Part shown: positions 8,402 through 12,967 of the stretch, one piece after another
How the letters are laid out: each line of letters starts with the position of its first letter
How positions within the stretch are numbered: position 1 is the first letter of the stretch
Origin: a virus
Lineage: Duplodnaviria; Heunggongvirae; Uroviricota; Caudoviricetes
Length of the DNA stretch: 19,373 nt
Virus record (IMG/VR): IMGVR_UViG_2617270959_000004
Reading direction: 5' to 3' (one strand)
Translations under genes and position numbers: made by a program
Notes under the pieces: generated by a model
What the model was told of the DNA's origin: nothing
Databases searched by the model: none
The model's input: the letters and a program-made list of their open reading frames with translations, nothing else

Positions 8402-9145
8402 ATGACCACACCAAATCCACTGGCAAAGACGAAAGGTGCGGGGACGACGTTCTGGATGTATACCGGCAACGGCGATGCGTTTGCGAACCCTTTGTCGGAC
8501 ACTGACTGGCTGCGTCTTGCGATGGTGAAGGATCTGCAACCTGGCGAAATGACCGCTGATGCAGAAGATGACACTTATCTCGATGATGAAGATGCAGACT
8601 GGAAAACGACAACCCAGGGGCAGAAATCCGTTGGTGATACTTCGGCGACGCTGGCCTGGCGTCCGGGTGACAGCGGGCAGAAAAAACTGGTTCAGTTGTT
8701 CGACTCCGGTGAAGTCTGCGCGTTTCGTATCAAATATCCCAACGGCACTGTTGATGTTTTCCGTGGCTGGCTGAGCTCACTGGGTAAAACCATTGCCTCA
8801 AAAGACGTGATGACCCGCACTGTGAAAATCAGCGGTGTGGGGCGTCCGTATCTGGCAGAGGAAGGCACTGAAACCGTGAGCGTTACCGGGCTGACAGTAT
8901 CACCGGCGTCTGCCAGTGTAAAAGTGGGAGCAACCACCACGCTGACCTTTACAGTAAAACCTGACGGAGCCAGTGACAAAGCGATCAGTGTGCATTCGTC
9001 AGATCCACAGACTGCCACGGTTACCCTGAACGGACTTGTGGCCACGGTAAAAGGCGTGAAGCAGGGCAGTGTCAGCATTGTGGGCATGACCGCTGACGGG
9101 AATTTTGTGGCTGTGACTGCGGTGACTGTCAGCGCAGCAGGTTAA
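8402..9145 (+). CDS. V: Major tail protein V with C-terminal Ig-like domain
   Basis: AGGAGG 6 nt upstream; translation closely matches remembered lambda gpV (VKGAGTT, YLDDEDADW, NGTVDVFRGW...). Confidence 0.92.
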   Translation: MTTPNPLAKTKGAGTTFWMYTGNGDAFANPLSDTDWLRLAMVKDLQPGEMTADAEDDTYLDDEDADWKTTTQGQKSVGDTSATLAWRPGDSGQKKLVQLFDSGEVCAFRIKYPNGTVDVFRGWLSSLGKTIASKDVMTRTVKISGVGRPYLAEEGTETVSVTGLTVSPASASVKVGATTTLTFTVKPDGASDKAISVHSSDPQTATVTLNGLVATVKGVKQGSVSIVGMTADGNFVAVTAVTVSAAG

Positions 9146-9165: not shown

Positions 9166-9189
9166 GCCCCGGTTATGCGGGGCTTTTTT
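9166..9189 (+). terminator. Candidate intrinsic terminator/attenuator between V and G
   Basis: GCCCCG-GUUAUG-CGGGGC hairpin followed by six T, 21 nt after the V stop. Confidence 0.55.
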
Positions 9190-9205
9190 GCAGGTGGAGA
9201 ACATG

Positions 9206-9592
9206 ATGTTTCTGAAACAGGACACGTTTAATTATGAAAAACAGTCCGTGGTGCTCAGTGAGCTGTCCGGGCTGCAGAGAATTGAATATCTGACGTTTGT
9301 TCAGCAGCGAACGGCAAAGTTTTATGCCGTGGAGGGAGAACTGCCGGAGGCTGAACGACAGATTGCTTTTCTGCGGATGGGGATGGATATCAATGCCTGG
9401 CTGGTTTCCCGCTCACTGTGGAATGCGGATCAGTCTAAGGATGTAGAGACGCTTTGCGCATCCGTTATTACAACATGGTCGTATGATGCCCTGGGTGCGG
9501 GGGCGGAGATGGTTCTGTCGCTGAGCGGTATGGGGGCCATTGATAATGCCGTGGATGATGAGCATGAGGCGCTGACGCCGGAAAAGTCCTGA
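9206..9592 (+). CDS. G: Tail assembly chaperone G
   Basis: GGAG at 9196-9199; begins MFLK... like lambda gpG; 128 aa; stop TGA 9590-9592. Confidence 0.85.
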   Translation: MFLKQDTFNYEKQSVVLSELSGLQRIEYLTFVQQRTAKFYAVEGELPEAERQIAFLRMGMDINAWLVSRSLWNADQSKDVETLCASVITTWSYDALGAGAEMVLSLSGMGAIDNAVDDEHEALTPEKS

Positions 9593-9930
9593 CGCGGGAA
9601 ATGCAGTTTGTCATGCGGCTTGCCCGGGAGTTCCGGCGGGCAGACTGGCGGCGGATGCTGTCGGAAATGTCGGCCACTGAGCTTGGTGAGTGGGGCGATT
9701 ATTTCCGGATGCAGAGCTTCAGTGATGTGTGGATGGATGCGCAGTTTGCCTCGCTGAAGGCATTGATCGTGAGAATGGTGTCCGGCAGCAGTGATGCTGC
9801 GGTGGCTGATTTCAGCCTTTTACCGGAAGAGAACGGGATACCGGAGCGAACGGACGAAGAACTGATGCATCTTGGGGAAGGTATTTCCGGAGGTGTGCGT
9901 TATGGACCAGATAGCCAACCTGGTCATTGA
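9568..9930 (+). CDS. T: Tail assembly protein T reading frame, expressed as a G-T fusion by -1 frameshift
   Basis: The -1 frame is open only from 9568 (TGA at 9565-9567) and overlaps the last 22 nt of G; no independent SD; arrangement is that of lambda G/G-T. Confidence 0.7.
   Translation, partial: GADAGKVLTREMQFVMRLAREFRRADWRRMLSEMSATELGEWGDYFRMQSFSDVWMDAQFASLKALIVRMVSGSSDAAVADFSLLPEENGIPERTDEELMHLGEGISGGVRYGPDSQPGH
9580..9586 (+). other. Candidate -1 frameshift (slippery) heptamer G GAA AAG for G-T
   Basis: It is the only A-rich heptamer within the 22-nt G/T overlap; lambda uses G GGA AAG at the equivalent place. Confidence 0.5.
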
Positions 9931-12900
9931 TTTGGGGATTGATGCGGCAGAGTTTAAAAATGAAATTCCCCGTATCAAAAACCTTCTGAATGGTGCAGCC
10001 AGCGATGCAGAACGGTCTTCTGCCCGTATGCAGCGTTTTATGGAGCGTCAGACTCAGGCCGCCCGGCAGACAACGCAGGCAGCTTCTTCGGCTGCAACAG
10101 CCGCATCCGTCCATGCGCAGACGGTGGAGAAGAACGCACAGGCTCATGAACGCATGGCCCGCGAGGTGGAGAAAACCCGCCAGCGCATGGAGGCACTGAG
10201 CCAGAAAATGCGCGAGGAACAGGCGCAGGCCATCGCTCTGGCGGAGGCTCAGGATAAAGCGGCTGCTGCGTTTTATCGTCAGATTGACAGTGTGAAACAG
10301 GCCAGTGCGGGGCTGCAGGAATTACAGCGTATTCAGCAGCAGATCCGACAGGCCAGAAACAGTGGCGGGGTTGGTCAGCAGGATTATCTGGCGCTGATTT
10401 CTGAGGTTACGGCGAAAACCCGTGTTCTTACGCAGGCTGAGGCAGAGGCTACCCGACAGAAAGTGGCGTTTATCCGTCAGCTTAAAGAGCAGGCAACCCG
10501 CCAGAATCTTTCTTCTTCTGAGTTGCTTCGTGCCAGGGCTGCCCAGCTGGGGGTAAGCAGTGCTGCAGAAGTGTATATCCGCAAAATGGAGCGGGCAGGA
10601 AAAGCCACGCATTCGCTGGGTCTGAAAAGTGCAGCGGCCCGCCAGGAGATAGGCGTTCTGATAGGTGAACTGGCCCGCGGCAATTTAGGGGCGCTGAGGG
10701 GATCCGGGATAACGCTGGCTAACCGTGCCGGATGGATAGACACACTGATGTCACCGAAAGGCATGATGCTGGGCGGGGTTATTGGCGGTATTACCGCGGC
10801 CGTCTATGGTCTGGGTAAAGCCTGGTATGACGGTCAGAAGGAGGGGGAAGAATTTAACCGCCAGCTGTCGCTGACGGGGCATTATGCCGGAGTCACTGCC
10901 GGGCAGCTGTGGACGCTCAGTCGTGCTATTTCCGGGAATGGTATCACGCAACATGCTGCAGCCGGTGCGCTGGCTCAGGTGGTGGGGAGTGGTGCATTTC
11001 GTGGAAACGATATCGGTATGGTGGCGAGAGCTGCCGCACAGATGGAGCGATCGGTTGGCCAGTCGGTCAGCGATACCATAAATCAGTTTAAGCGGCTGAA
11101 GGATGATCCTGTAAATGCCGCGAAGTCTCTGGACAATGAGCTGCATTTTCTTACTGCCACTCAGCTTGAGCAGATACGCGTCCTTGGAGAGCAGGGGCGG
11201 TCCAGTGATGCGGCACGGATAGCCATGTCTGCACTGGCAGAGGAAACCGGTCGGCGTACTGCGGATATTGATAATAACCTCAATGCGCTGGGCAGTACGC
11301 TGCAAACTTTGTCTGACTGGTGGAAGCAGTTCTGGGATGCGGCCATGAATATTGGTCGTGAAGATTCGCTGGATGCGCAGATTGCCACTTTGCAGGAGAA
11401 AGTGTCGCGGGCGAAAAGACTCCCCTGGACGGCATCATCTTCTCAGGTTGAATACGATCAGCAGCGTCTTAACGATCTTCAGGAGAAAAAACGCCAGAAG
11501 GATTTGCAGGATGCAAAAGAGCAGGCAGAGCGGAATTATCAGGAGCAACAGAAACGCCGTAATGCTGAAAATGCTGCACTGAACCGGATGAATGAAACGG
11601 AAGCTGCACGACATCAGCGTGAAATTGCGCGTATTAATGCCATGCAGTACGCCGATCAGGCTGTCAGGGATGCGGCGATACAACGTGAAAATGAACGTTA
11701 CGAGAAAGCCCTGGCATCCGGTAAGAAAAAAACACGCGAAACCCGTAATGATGAGGCCACCCGGTTATTGCTGCAGTACAGTCAGCAACAGGCACAGGTG
11801 GAAGGACAGATTGCTGCTGCCAGACAGTCAGCAGGCATTGCCACGGAAAGGATGACAGAAGCGCATAAACAGCTCCTGGCTCTGCAGCAGCGCATCAGCG
11901 ACCTGGACGGGAAAAAACTGACGGCAGATGAAAAGAGTGTGCTGGCCCGTAAAGATGAACTGATTCAGGCACTGACGCTGCTGGATGTAAAACAGCAGGA
12001 GCTTCAGAAACAGACGGCACTCAACGAGCTGAAGAAAAAAACAATTCAGCTGACCAGTCAACTGGCTGAAGAAGAGCGCGCTCAGCGTCAGCAACATGAC
12101 CTGGATATCGCCACGGTGGGTATGGGTGATCAGCAGCGACAGCGATATCAGGTACAACTGAGTCTTCGCCAGAAATACCAGCAACAGCTGGAGCAGTTGA
12201 GGCGGGATAGTGAGCAGAAAGGGACATATAACACGGATGACTACAGAAAGGCCGAGCAGGCGCTGACGGAGAGCCTGAACCGACAACTGAATGAGAATCG
12301 CCGTTACTGGCAACAGCTTGAAGTTGTGCAGGGTAACTGGAAAAACGGAGTCCTGCGTGCATTTCAGGATTTTACCGTGGATGCAGATAATACGGCAGAA
12401 ACAGCAGAACAGGTGTTCTCGTCAGCCTTCAGCAACATGGGAAATGGCCTGGCAACTTTTGTCACTACCGGCAAACTCAATTTCAAATCCTTCACCTCTT
12501 CTGTGCTGTCAGATATGGCGAAAATCCTGGCGCAGGCAACCATGATGAAATCGATAAAAGGGATTGGCAGTGTACTGGGATTTGATCTCAGCAGCCTTTC
12601 CCTGAATGCCAATGGGGGGATTTATCAGTCTGCTGATTTGAGTCGTTACAGTGGCACGGTGGTTAACCGTCCGACGTTTTTTGCTTTTGCAAAAGGCGCG
12701 GGTGTGATGGGGGAAGCGGGACCTGAAGCCATTCTGCCATTGCGTCGTGGTGCTGACGGTAAGCTGGGGGTTGTGGCGGATATTGGGGGTTCAGGTATGG
12801 CGATGTTTTCCCCGCAGTACAACATCGAGATCAATAACGATGGCACGAACGGGCAGATAGGTCCGGCTGCCCTGAAGGCGGTTTATGACCTCGGGAAAAA

Positions 12901-12967
12901 AGCGGCAGCGGACTTTATGCAACAGCAGGCCCGTGATGGTGGTCGGTTAAGTGGAGCATATCGGTAA
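9902..12967 (+). CDS. H: Tail tape measure protein H (1021 aa)
   Basis: GGAGG at 9889-9893; long Ala/Gln/Arg-rich coiled-coil-like protein; C-terminal region resembles lambda gpH; located between G-T and M. Confidence 0.9.
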   Translation: MDQIANLVIDLGIDAAEFKNEIPRIKNLLNGAASDAERSSARMQRFMERQTQAARQTTQAASSAATAASVHAQTVEKNAQAHERMAREVEKTRQRMEALSQKMREEQAQAIALAEAQDKAAAAFYRQIDSVKQASAGLQELQRIQQQIRQARNSGGVGQQDYLALISEVTAKTRVLTQAEAEATRQKVAFIRQLKEQATRQNLSSSELLRARAAQLGVSSAAEVYIRKMERAGKATHSLGLKSAAARQEIGVLIGELARGNLGALRGSGITLANRAGWIDTLMSPKGMMLGGVIGGITAAVYGLGKAWYDGQKEGEEFNRQLSLTGHYAGVTAGQLWTLSRAISGNGITQHAAAGALAQVVGSGAFRGNDIGMVARAAAQMERSVGQSVSDTINQFKRLKDDPVNAAKSLDNELHFLTATQLEQIRVLGEQGRSSDAARIAMSALAEETGRRTADIDNNLNALGSTLQTLSDWWKQFWDAAMNIGREDSLDAQIATLQEKVSRAKRLPWTASSSQVEYDQQRLNDLQEKKRQKDLQDAKEQAERNYQEQQKRRNAENAALNRMNETEAARHQREIARINAMQYADQAVRDAAIQRENERYEKALASGKKKTRETRNDEATRLLLQYSQQQAQVEGQIAAARQSAGIATERMTEAHKQLLALQQRISDLDGKKLTADEKSVLARKDELIQALTLLDVKQQELQKQTALNELKKKTIQLTSQLAEEERAQRQQHDLDIATVGMGDQQRQRYQVQLSLRQKYQQQLEQLRRDSEQKGTYNTDDYRKAEQALTESLNRQLNENRRYWQQLEVVQGNWKNGVLRAFQDFTVDADNTAETAEQVFSSAFSNMGNGLATFVTTGKLNFKSFTSSVLSDMAKILAQATMMKSIKGIGSVLGFDLSSLSLNANGGIYQSADLSRYSGTVVNRPTFFAFAKGAGVMGEAGPEAILPLRRGADGKLGVVADIGGSGMAMFSPQYNIEINNDGTNGQIGPAALKAVYDLGKKAAADFMQQQARDGGRLSGAYR

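What the first reader, a model, noticed from the sequence alone, without database searches (positions are those of the whole stretch)
9568..9592. G-T programmed frameshift window of only 22 nt with a non-canonical slippery heptamer GGAAAAG
The T frame has no start of its own near the G stop and is closed by TGA at 9565-9567, so any G-T fusion must shift between 9568 and 9589. The only candidate is G GAA AAG (9580-9586), one base different from lambda's G GGA AAG. P-site re-pairing GAA to GGA is imperfect, so the efficiency or mechanism may differ from lambda.
Basis: partly seen in the sequence, partly recalled or inferred. Interest (0 to 1): 0.5.

Follow-up and report, generated by a model that had tools for sequence, protein, structure and literature searches.

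The report
Lambda-like G-T frameshift site, N15-type
This is the usual ribosomal frameshift site that lets a lambda-like phage make a small amount of a fused tail-assembly chaperone (G-T); its heptamer, G GAA AAG, looks odd next to lambda's but is the commonest version in this gene family and was already annotated in phage N15.

Summary
The window is the tail module of an mEp460/cdtI-like lambdoid coliphage. Gene G (Pfam PF06894) ends at TGA 9590-9592. The T domain (PF06223) lies in the -1 frame, which is closed upstream by TGA 9565-9567. The only in-phase slippery motif in the overlap is G_GAA_AAG at 9580-9586.

This heptamer sits at exactly the position of lambda's G_GGA_AAG. It is not an oddity:
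- The N15 GenBank record annotates the same heptamer in its homologous genes 14/15 as the "slippery sequence for -1 translational frameshift".
- In a species-level survey it occupied the site in 47 of 59 distinct sequence contexts, against 6 for lambda's heptamer.
- The base before GAA is G in all 21 divergent lineages, although it is a synonymous position.
- T-frame residues K and E upstream of ATG 9601 are invariant, while that ATG is not conserved.

The best reading is a -1 frameshift: tRNA-Lys slips AAG to AAA, and tRNA-Glu re-pairs GAA to GGA with a middle G·U pair.

This clade lacks the downstream stem-loop found in N15, phi80 and lambda. Instead it has GAGG 10 nt upstream, the dnaX spacing. 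That is a testable hint, not a result. No fusion protein or efficiency was measured.

Verdict: a new member of a known kind, of low to moderate interest.

The parts
9166..9189 (+). Rho-independent terminator-like hairpin plus T-run between the major tail gene V and gene G. It probably lowers G/GT transcription relative to V.
   Evidence: 6 G-C pairs followed by TTTTTT. The equivalent feature is annotated in the mEp460, N15 and HK97 records.
9203..9592 (+). Gene G, the tail assembly chaperone (129 aa from ATG 9203; PGAP uses ATG 9206). Stop codon TGA at 9590-9592.
   Evidence: Pfam PF06894 Phage_TAC_2, E = 4.9e-39. Translation. Annotations.
9565..9567 (+). TGA in the T (-1) frame. It closes that frame upstream, so the shift must occur at or after 9568.
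9566..9569 (+). Shine-Dalgarno-like GAGG (GAGGTG in most close relatives), 10 nt upstream of the heptamer. Candidate upstream stimulator; inferred, not shown.
   Evidence: [quoted passage not shown] The spacing equals that in the dnaX-mimic mRNA AGGGAG-N10-AAAAAAG. Predicted anti-SD duplex energy is -6.8 kcal/mol for the window and -9.3 for the GAGGTG variant.
9580..9586 (+). Slippery heptamer G_GAA_AAG, the site of the -1 shift. Zero-frame codons are GAA (Glu) and AAG (Lys). The -1 frame codons are GGA and AAA.
   Evidence: Only in-phase motif in the overlap. Orthologous to lambda G_GGA_AAG. Identical to the annotated N15 slippery sequence. Found in 47 of 59 distinct family contexts.
9586..9930 (+). 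T-frame part of the GT fusion (114 aa, VLTREMQF...PGH, stop at 9928-9930). The predicted GT product is 242 aa from ATG 9203, with junction ...ALTPEK|VLTREMQF.
   Evidence: Translation. Pfam PF06223 Phage_tail_T, E = 5.1e-15.
9601..9603 (+). ATG used by public annotation as an independent start of T. It is probably just internal Met12 of the T segment.
   Evidence: Annotated as the start. The codon is CTG, CTT or CGN in most relatives (columns 22-24). The invariant residues K6 and E11 lie upstream of it.
9902..12967 (+). Tape measure gene H. Its start overlaps the 3' end of T by 29 nt. Given as context that fixes the V-G-T-H gene order.
   Evidence: Pfam TMP_2, Tape_meas_lam_C and TMP_4. Annotation.

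Best explanation
This is the tail assembly chaperone recoding site of an mEp460/cdtI-like lambdoid phage.

Most ribosomes translate G to the TGA at 9590 and make gpG. A small fraction slip back one base while GAA (9581-9583) and AAG (9584-9586) are being decoded. They continue in the T frame from GTC 9586 and produce a roughly 242-aa G-T fusion. By analogy with lambda, its G part binds the tape measure protein and its T part recruits the major tail protein.

Mechanism (inferred): the driving event is re-pairing of the single E. coli tRNA-Lys (anticodon mnm5s2UUU) from AAG to the cognate AAA. The P-site tRNA-Glu (anticodon mnm5s2UUC) re-pairs from GAA to GGA, keeping G:C at position 1, a G·U pair at position 2 and A:U at position 3. 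That is why the G at 9580 is conserved.

The heptamer is intrinsically weaker than lambda's. Unlike N15, phi80 and lambda, this clade has no downstream stem-loop. An SD-like GAGG 10 nt upstream may provide the stimulation.

Shown here: the anatomy, the orthology, the nucleotide-level conservation and the lack of a conserved independent start.
Inferred: the tRNA events, the role of GAGG, and the low efficiency.
For: Gene content and order:
- V, G (PF06894), T (PF06223) in the -1 frame, then H.

Orthology with lambda:
- The heptamer aligns exactly with lambda's G_GGA_AAG. The T-frame reads GK(V/A)(L/F)..E(L/M).F in both.

Prior annotation:
- N15 record NC_001901 marks GGAAAAG (10027-10033) as the "slippery sequence for -1 translational frameshift" in homologous genes 14/15.

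Survey of 162 loci giving 59 distinct 77-nt contexts:
- GGAAAAG 47, GGGAAAG 6, AAAAAAG 3, GGCAAAA 2, GGGAAAA 1.
- Among 28 representatives below 85% identity, 21 have GGAAAAG. One search adds G_GTA_AAG, G_GAA_AAG+TAG (Proteus) and A_GAA_AAG+TAA. Every variant keeps an in-phase A_AAR.

Nucleotide-level constraint:
- In the 21 divergent GGAAAAG lineages the preceding codon is GCG, CCG, CTG or TTG (three amino acids), always ending in G.
- The product of the family's own G3 codon frequencies is 3.5e-9 if the lineages were independent.
- GAA and AAG are fixed, although GAG and AAA are frequent elsewhere in these genes.

Evidence for translation in the T frame upstream of ATG 9601:
- K6 and E11 of the T frame, upstream of ATG 9601, are invariant in nine proteins that are 34-53% identical to the window's T sequence.
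- ATG 9601 is not conserved.

Viability and prevalence:
- Phages with this exact site are viable isolates (mEp460, Tritos, HannyBb, Ayreon, PhiR55_1), as are N15 and phi80.
- The allele is in 1846 of 5426 complete E. coli genomes.

Published support:
- A_AAG is the most shift-prone tetramer in E. coli (PMC4066793).
- NNA_AAG hexamers and G_GA-type P-site codons are recognised intermediates (PMC5009743).

Upstream GAGG:
- It meets the published SD-stimulator criterion.
Against: - No protein or reporter data exist for this phage or, as far as I could find, for any GGAAAAG member. The N15 feature is an annotation, not an assay.
- In a reconstituted E. coli system, AUG GAA AAG gave mainly 0-frame product and was used as the poorly slippery control (PMC6924986).
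- A_AAG alone is at background (about 0.15%) without a stimulator, and even G_GGA_AAG gives only 0.28% (PMC4066793).
- The window shows no significant downstream structure: z = +0.3 for 74 nt and -1.1 for 114 nt. Only 4 of 10 and 9 of 15 pairs of the family stem-loop can form (read against the structure).
- The GAGG overlaps a conserved Glu codon. The SD/stem anti-correlation (Fisher p = 0.024) is not corrected for phylogeny.
- Morganella has A_GAA_AAG, so the first G is not absolutely required.
Confidence: 0.85

Rival explanations
1. T is made as a separate 109-aa protein from ATG 9601, either by weak initiation or by termination-reinitiation after the G stop 8 nt upstream. No fusion is needed. 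This is how the public records annotate it.
For: - mEp460, cdtI and PGAP annotate T as a CDS from this ATG.
- The ATG is 8 nt after TGA 9590-9592, a distance compatible in principle with translational coupling.
Against: - The ATG is not conserved. The aligned codon is CTT in Gifsy-2, CTG in Citrobacter and N15, and CGN in others.
- The invariant T-frame residues K6 and E11 lie upstream of it.
- The only purine-rich stretch, GGGAA, ends 2 nt before the ATG, too close for a Shine-Dalgarno site.
- In lambda the functional species is the GT fusion, present at about 1 per 30 gpG (PMC5009743).
- The heptamer and its first G are conserved at synonymous positions, which an independent start would not explain.
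Confidence: 0.07
2. The shift is a single-tRNA event on the tetramer A_AAG (hexamer GAA_AAG). Only tRNA-Lys re-pairs, tRNA-Glu does not re-pair with GGA, and the first G is irrelevant to the mechanism.
For: - A_AAG is the best tetramer in E. coli and NNA_AAG hexamers are documented -1 sites.
- All family variants share only A_AAR.
- Morganella has A_GAA_AAG.
- Peng et al. treat GAA to GGA as a second-position mismatch.
Against: - The first G is invariant in 47 of 47 distinct GGAAAAG contexts, across six codons and five amino acids.
- It is also invariant in 21 of 21 divergent lineages, where the chance product is 3.5e-9.
- The one exception (Morganella) has a stop codon directly after AAG, which is a different context.
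Confidence: 0.25
3. The site is a decayed lambda-type site (GGGAAAG to GGAAAAG by one mutation) in a defective prophage, and little or no GT is made.
For: - It differs from lambda's heptamer by one base.
- It is poorly slippery in vitro.
- No stimulatory structure is detected.
Against: - The same heptamer is in plaque-forming phages mEp460, Ayreon, Tritos, phi80 and N15.
- It is the majority state over many Enterobacterales genera.
- It is invariant in 82 of 82 close relatives and phage records examined.
Confidence: 0.02
4. The fusion arises by transcriptional slippage of RNA polymerase on the A4 run rather than by ribosomal frameshifting.
For: The site contains a short homopolymer (AAAA, 9582-9585).
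Against: - Known prokaryotic transcriptional realignment needs runs of about 8 or more A or T (PMC3711429: An with n > 7, Tn with n > 8). Four A's are far below this.
- The conserved flanking G..G and the codon phase point to tRNA re-pairing.
Confidence: 0.01

Closest known systems
Phage N15 genes 14/15 -1 frameshift (GenBank NC_001901, misc_feature 10027-10033)
   Same: - Homologous G and T proteins.
- Identical heptamer GGAAAAG at the orthologous codon positions.
- Same -1 direction and the same V-G-T-H gene order.
   Different: - N15 has 5 G-frame codons after the heptamer, where the window has 1.
- N15-type loci (HK225 folded; the N15 row of A2 is nearly identical) have a strong stem-loop starting about 5 nt downstream (z = -3 to -4.9). 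The window lacks it.
- N15 has no SD-like motif upstream; the window has GAGG at 10 nt.
- The window's T sequence is about 44% identical to that of HK225, the N15-type representative aligned.
Phage lambda G/GT frameshift at G_GGA_AAG (Levin, Hendrix & Casjens 1993; Xu, Hendrix & Duda 2004, 2013, 2014)
   Same: - Same gene family (PF06894 and PF06223).
- Same position of the slip site.
- Same A-site event (tRNA-Lys AAG to AAA).
- Presumably the same purpose of setting a low GT:G ratio (PMC5009743).
   Different: - The P-site codon is GAA (tRNA-Glu, G·U at the middle position after the shift) instead of GGA (tRNA-Gly, a wobble-position change only).
- The overlap is 25 nt against 64 nt.
- Lambda has a significant downstream fold (z = -2.7); the window has none.
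NNA_AAG hexanucleotide and A_AAG tetranucleotide -1 sites in bacteria (B. subtilis cdd CGA_AAG; IS3-context study of Licznar et al. 2003; Sharma et al. 2014)
   Same: In-phase A_AAG with a preceding NNA codon, relying on the unstable AAG:tRNA-Lys interaction in E. coli.
   Different: - Here the base before NNA is conserved, so partial P-site re-pairing is possible. That makes it an intermediate between a hexamer and a heptamer.
- I could not read the Licznar paper, so the measured rank of GAA among NNA codons is not known to me.
G_GAN-type heptamers of RNA viruses (insect-specific flaviviruses, umbraviruses, dianthoviruses, mesoniviruses)
   Same: Non-canonical X_XX = G_GA, where the P-site tRNA for a GAN codon re-pairs to GGA (PMC5009743).
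   Different: Eukaryotic ribosomes, different A-site codons, strong RNA stimulators and unrelated genes.
E. coli dnaX A_AAA_AAG with an upstream SD-like stimulator
   Same: SD-like element exactly 10 nt upstream of a heptamer ending in A_AAG.
   Different: - dnaX also has a strong downstream hairpin and a fully canonical heptamer, and shifts at about 50%.
- Here the SD role is only inferred, and the expected level is a few percent or less.

Membership tests
Lambda-type tail assembly chaperone G/GT programmed -1 frameshift | Upstream ORF is a gpG-family chaperone. | tested here: met
   PF06894, E = 4.9e-39, covering 121 of 129 aa.
Lambda-type tail assembly chaperone G/GT programmed -1 frameshift | Downstream T domain lies in the -1 frame, overlaps the 3' end of G, and has no conserved start of its own. 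| tested here: met
   PF06223, E = 5.1e-15. ATG 9601 is not conserved, and the conserved residues K6 and E11 lie upstream of it.
Lambda-type tail assembly chaperone G/GT programmed -1 frameshift | The pair lies between the major tail protein gene and the tape measure gene. | tested here: met
   V (Phage_TTP_12 plus Big_2) lies upstream. H (TMP_2, Tape_meas_lam_C) lies downstream.
Lambda-type tail assembly chaperone G/GT programmed -1 frameshift | A conserved in-phase slippery sequence lies within the overlap. | tested here: met
   G_GAA_AAG at 9580-9586 is orthologous to lambda's site and conserved across the family.
Lambda-type tail assembly chaperone G/GT programmed -1 frameshift | A GT fusion protein is produced at a low ratio to G and is required for tail assembly. 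| not testable with these tools
   Needs a reporter assay, Western blot, mass spectrometry or phage genetics.
Canonical X_XXY_YYZ simultaneous-slippage heptamer | XXX are three identical bases, so the P-site tRNA keeps two Watson-Crick pairs after the shift. | tested here: not met
   X_XX is G_GA. After the shift, tRNA-Glu faces GGA with a G·U pair at the middle position (established anticodon knowledge; PMC6924986).
Canonical X_XXY_YYZ simultaneous-slippage heptamer | YYY are identical and allow cognate A-site re-pairing. | tested here: met
   A_AAG goes to AAA, read by the same tRNA-Lys.
N15-type GGAAAAG tail chaperone slip site | The identical heptamer sits at the orthologous position of homologous genes. 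| tested here: met
N15-type GGAAAAG tail chaperone slip site | A two-helix stem-loop begins about 5 nt 3' of the heptamer. This feature is seen here in N15, phi80 and lambda-type members; it is not a published definition. | tested here: not met
   In the window only 4 of 10 outer and 9 of 15 inner pairs can form, and the fold z-scores are +0.3 and -1.1. Family members have z = -3 to -4.9.
NNA_AAG hexanucleotide / A_AAG tetranucleotide -1 sites | In-phase A_AAG preceded by an NNA codon. | tested here: met
   GAA_AAG in the G frame.
NNA_AAG hexanucleotide / A_AAG tetranucleotide -1 sites | Only the A-site tRNA re-pairs, so the base 5' of NNA is free to vary. | tested here: inconclusive
   The 5' base is G in 47 of 47 GGAAAAG contexts, which argues against this. 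Morganella has A there.
SD-stimulated bacterial -1 frameshift (dnaX / IS911 type) | [quoted passage not shown] | tested here: met
   GAGG with a gap of 11 nt, against a background rate of 16-23% at other positions.
SD-stimulated bacterial -1 frameshift (dnaX / IS911 type) | The SD-like element measurably raises frameshifting. | not testable with these tools
   Needs GAGG to GAAG (synonymous) reporter mutants.

The most novel reading that the evidence does not exclude
Within one orthologous recoding site, the lambda-like tail chaperone family has swapped both the heptamer and the stimulator.

- Heptamers seen at the site: GGAAAAG, GGGAAAG, AAAAAAG, GGTAAAG, GGCAAAA.
- Most N15, phi80 and lambda-type members use a downstream stem-loop.
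- The mEp460/Gifsy-2 clade, including this window, has lost that stem-loop and relies on a dnaX-like SD element 10 nt upstream to make an intrinsically poor heptamer deliver the required trace of GT.

The heptamer is the one used as the non-slippery control in a kinetic study (PMC6924986). A further possibility in this clade only is that ATG 9601, 8 nt after the G stop, adds some free T by reinitiation.
Probability: 0.3. Interest if true: 0.45.

Novelty: new member of a known kind. Interest (0 to 1): 0.27.

Why it matters
Annotation:
- This G-T allele is in about a third of complete E. coli genomes (1846 of 5426) and in many phage records.
- It is annotated everywhere as two separate genes, with T starting at a non-conserved ATG.
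- The correct product is very probably a frameshift fusion joined at 9586. Annotation pipelines that look only for X_XXY_YYZ will miss the majority slip site of this family.

Recoding biology:
- The site is a natural, strongly conserved use of a heptamer that mechanistic studies treat as poorly slippery.
- The family offers a ready-made series of heptamer and stimulator combinations at one orthologous site. These could be used to calibrate quantitative models of -1 frameshifting.

None of this changes the established picture of G/GT function.

Tried and rejected
- **Downstream stimulatory structure in the window.** I folded 9587-9660, 9587-9700, 9590-9640 and 9560-9680. The z-scores ran from +1.2 to -1.1, so nothing significant. 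A 5-bp hairpin starting immediately after the heptamer has zero spacer and is too close to act as a classical stimulator.
- **One consensus structure for all GGAAAAG lineages.** RNAalifold found nothing (-1.6 kcal/mol). The reason is that the family is heterogeneous: the stem-loop is present in N15, phi80 and lambda types and absent in the window's clade.
- **Licznar et al. 2003 (NNA_AAG).** I tried to read it to get the measured rank of GAA. It is not held under DOI or the guessed PMC id. I rely on its summary in PMC5009743.
- **Literature searches.** Searches for GGAAAAG or "GAA AAG" with phage tail frameshifting found no paper on this heptamer in tail genes. Xu et al. 2004 is not in the library, so I cannot say whether N15-type sites were assayed.
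- **First viral-contig scan.** It returned only 100%-identical T proteins. That confirms invariance but says nothing about divergence. The genome-contig scan with an alignment query and tblastn on phages supplied the divergent set.
- **One script timed out**. I replaced it with the strand folding.
- **Rejected readings.** Transcriptional slippage (the A4 run is too short) and a decayed site in a defective prophage (viable phages carry it).
Full report
**What the window is**

The 767 bases around the finding match 17 phage records at 97-99.7% identity. These include mEp460, cdtI, Tritos, HannyBb, Ayreon and PhiR55_1, several of them propagated on laboratory E. coli. The same stretch occurs in 1846 of 5426 complete E. 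coli genomes.

Pfam assigns the four ORFs as follows:
- 8327-9142 is a lambda-type tail tube protein with an Ig-like domain.
- 9203-9589 belongs to PF06894, tail assembly chaperone G (E = 4.9e-39).
- The frame open from 9568 to 9927 belongs to PF06223, minor tail protein T (E = 5.1e-15).
- 9902-12964 is a tape measure protein.

This is the V-G-T-H block of a lambdoid siphovirus.

**Checking the observation**

The G frame ends ...GCG CTG ACG CCG GAA AAG TCC TGA, with the stop at 9590-9592. The T frame is the -1 frame relative to G. It has TGA at 9565-9567 and is open from 9568 to the stop at 9928-9930. The overlap is therefore 9568-9592.

An explicit scan of the overlap for in-phase X_XXY_YYZ or Y_YYZ motifs returns only G_GAA_AAG at 9580-9586.

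The heptamer alone is not rare: it occurs 4 times in the window against 2.5 expected. Its meaning rests on phase, position and conservation.

**Orthology with lambda**
- Lambda reads ...TCT GCG GGA AAG TGT TCG ACG GTG AGC TGA in G, and GGG AAA GTG TTC GAC GGT GAG CTG AGT TTT in T.
- The window reads ...ACG CCG GAA AAG TCC TGA in G, and GGA AAA GTC CTG ACG CGG GAA ATG CAG TTT in T.
- The T-frame peptides (GKVFDGELSF and GKVLTREMQF) align without gaps. K6, E11 and F14 are invariant in nine T sequences that are 34-53% identical to the window's.
- So G_GAA_AAG occupies exactly the position of lambda's G_GGA_AAG and differs at the third base only.

**It is already on record**

The N15 GenBank record (NC_001901) carries a misc_feature at 10027-10033, "slippery sequence for -1 translational frameshift", inside gene 15. 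That gene is annotated as the downstream half of the frameshift product. The bases there are GGAAAAG.

N15 genes 14/15 are homologues of the window's G and T. The mEp460, cdtI, Ayreon and phi80 records and the PGAP annotation of E. coli genomes show no frameshift. mEp460, cdtI and PGAP start T at the ATG equivalent to 9601, and Ayreon at an internal ATG further downstream.

**It is the majority form**

I collected divergent G-T loci in two ways:
- tblastn of the predicted fusion against phages gave 186 records.
- A scan of one genome per species with an alignment of T domains gave 78 loci.

I anchored each locus on the invariant ARE..R.DW motif, which lies 14 codons downstream. The 162 loci give 59 distinct 77-nt contexts:

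| Heptamer at the site | Distinct contexts |
|---|---|
| GGAAAAG | 47 |
| GGGAAAG (lambda type) | 6 |
| AAAAAAG (Stx/ASU11 type) | 3 |
| GGCAAAA followed by TAG | 2 |
| GGGAAAA followed by TAG | 1 |

Loci missed by the anchor add three more cases:
- G_GTA_AAG in Pantoea.
- G_GAA_AAG followed by TAG in Proteus.
- A_GAA_AAG followed by TAA in Morganella.

The GGAAAAG class includes Gifsy-2 (54% identical to the window's fusion), phi80, mEp213, HK225 and an Enterobacter Ravinvirus. It also includes prophages of Citrobacter, Klebsiella, Kluyvera, Kosakonia, Serratia, Providencia, Sodalis and others. Every variant keeps an in-phase A_AAR.

After reduction to 28 representatives below 85% identity, 21 carry GGAAAAG.

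**Nucleotide-level selection**
- In those 21 lineages the codon before GAA is GCG (9), CCG (7), CTG (4) or TTG (1). Over all 47 contexts ACG and GTG also occur, giving five different amino acids. The codon always ends in G.
- Using the G3 frequencies of Pro, Ala and Leu codons in these same genes (0.41, 0.33, 0.53), the chance of 21 out of 21 is 3.5e-9 if the lineages were independent. They are not fully independent, but the margin is large.
- GAA and AAG are likewise fixed, although GAG (43% of Glu codons) and AAA (64% of Lys codons) are common in these genes.
- The T-frame Gly codon that the first G helps to form is not translated if the shift is at the heptamer.
- The constraint is therefore on the RNA, as expected for a slip site in which the P-site tRNA also re-pairs.

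**Mechanism**

From established tRNA knowledge, E. coli has a single tRNA-Lys (anticodon mnm5s2UUU). It pairs poorly with AAG and cognately with AAA. This makes A_AAG the most shift-prone tetramer in E. coli (PMC4066793).

tRNA-Glu (anticodon mnm5s2UUC) moved from GAA to GGA keeps G:C at codon position 1, forms G·U at position 2 and keeps A:U at position 3. Peng et al. call this a second-position mismatch. They used AUG GAA AAG as their poorly slippery mRNA: it gave mainly 0-frame product at all EF-G concentrations, but frameshifting rose with EF-G domain 4 mutants (PMC6924986).

The Atkins review describes two relevant classes (PMC5009743):
- NNA_AAG hexamers.
- Intermediate heptamers whose X_XX is G_GA, G_GU or C_CA.

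The window's site is such an intermediate. I infer dual slippage with a weakened P-site re-pairing. A pure single-tRNA slip remains a live alternative, because Morganella lacks the first G.

**Stimulators**

Published values put the intrinsic strengths in context (PMC4066793):
- G_GGA_AAG gives 0.28% without stimulators, 3.8% with the IS911 stimulators and 43% with the IS3 pseudoknot.
- The Z_ZZN tetramers average about 0.15% (near background) without a pseudoknot; with the IS3 pseudoknot A_AAG is the most efficient of them (range 0.26-5.6%).

Context therefore matters.

In N15, phi80 and related members, the 80 nt after the heptamer fold far better than shuffles (z = -3.1 to -4.9). The fold has an outer helix starting 5 nt after the heptamer (GCCAGYGAGC...GCUUGCUGGC) that encloses a second helix. 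Lambda folds similarly (z = -2.7).

On a 48-sequence ungapped alignment, this structure has 75.7% of cells paired, against 25-40% when the partners are slid. It shows A-U to G-C exchanges at pair 16/84 (20 A-U, 11 G-C). The structure was taken from one member, which inflates the paired-cell measure, so I regard it as moderately supported.

The window's clade does not have it:
- Only 4 of 10 outer and 9 of 15 inner pairs can form (read).
- Its folds are no better than shuffles.

Instead, GAGG sits at 9566-9569, 10 nt before the heptamer. In most close relatives it is GAGGTG.
- This satisfies the criterion Sharma et al. used for experimentally validated SD stimulators.
- The spacing equals that of the dnaX-type mRNA AGGGAG-N10-AAAAAAG.
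- Predicted anti-SD duplexes are -6.8 kcal/mol for the window, -9.3 for the GAGGTG variant and -7.4 for dnaX. Lambda gives -2.1 and N15 -0.9.
- Across the 28 representatives, an SD-like motif in the 6-17 nt interval occurs in 11, against a 16% background.
- It is anti-correlated with an intact outer helix (2 of 11 against 11 of 17; Fisher p = 0.024).

Two caveats apply. The SD-bearing lineages are mostly the window's nearest relatives, and the GAGG overlaps a conserved Glu codon. This is therefore a hypothesis, not a finding.

**The rival start at ATG 9601**
- Only the mEp460 clade and one Edwardsiella locus have ATG there. The aligned codon is CTG, CTT, CTA or CGN elsewhere, including in Gifsy-2 and Citrobacter, the closest relatives.
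- There is no properly spaced SD.
- Conserved T-frame residues lie upstream of it.
- Reinitiation after the G stop 8 nt upstream cannot be excluded for this clade. It would be an addition to the conserved route, not a replacement.

**Verdict**

The feature is the ordinary G/GT recoding site of its family, in its most common form, and was already annotated in N15.

What is modestly new here:
- This widespread E. coli prophage allele is mis-annotated as two genes.
- GGAAAAG, not lambda's GGGAAAG, is the family's predominant heptamer, with selection on its first G.
- There is an untested suggestion that the window's clade traded a downstream stem-loop for an upstream SD-like stimulator.

No experiment on GT production or efficiency exists for this site, as far as I could find.

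Noticed in passing
L085, L088, L089, L125, L129, L130, L135 (80 nt after the heptamer); L003 1119-1192; alignment A2 columns 13-22/78-87 and 41-56/61-76: N15, phi80 and lambda-type G-T loci share a two-helix stem-loop that begins about 5 nt 3' of the slip site. Fold z-scores are -3 to -4.9. On the alignment 75.7% of cells pair, against 25-40% in slid controls, and pair 16/84 swaps A-U for G-C. It looks like a frameshift stimulator. I do not know whether it has been described for lambda or N15.
   Followed up: partly
window 9566-9569, and the equivalent position in L084, L106, L110, L113, L124, L126, L138: An SD-like motif (GAGG, AGGA or AGGTG) lies 6-17 nt upstream of the heptamer in 11 of 28 family representatives, against a 16% background. 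It occurs mostly in lineages that lack the downstream stem (Fisher p = 0.024, not corrected for phylogeny).
   Followed up: partly
window 9166-9189: A terminator-like hairpin (GCCCCG-loop-CGGGGC followed by TTTTTT) lies between the major tail gene V and gene G. It is annotated at the same place in mEp460, N15 and HK97. It may attenuate chaperone expression relative to the tube protein.
   Followed up: partly
L150-L162 (genome-contig hits): Lambda-identical G-T sequence sits on short, low-coverage contigs in assemblies of Neobacillus, Oceanobacillus, Kitasatospora, Shewanella, Pseudomonas, Leeuwenhoekiella, Enterococcus and others. This is almost certainly lambda DNA contamination. Similarly, E. 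coli prophage contigs were binned into Bacillota and Geobacteraceae MAGs (L100, L142).
   Followed up: no
L003 1071-1547 and L092 699-1160 (alignment A1 columns 140-174): Lambda and Stx-type T proteins carry an extra C-terminal segment of about 35 aa. It repeats the ..LM..A.G(I/L).GGVR(Y/F) motif that ends the shorter T proteins, including the window's, so it appears to be a tandem duplication.
   Followed up: no
L111 (Morganella), L115/L120/L121 (Proteus), L128, L166, L107, L109, L146: In several lineages the G stop codon (TAG or TAA) directly follows the heptamer, for example G_GAA_AAG_TAG, A_GAA_AAG_TAA and G_GCA_AAA_TAG. In these cases slow termination with tRNA-Lys in the P site could drive the shift by a different route.
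   Followed up: no
window 9902-9930: The tape measure gene H starts at ATG 9902 inside the last 29 nt of the T frame, so three reading frames (G, T, H) are used within 340 nt.
   Followed up: no
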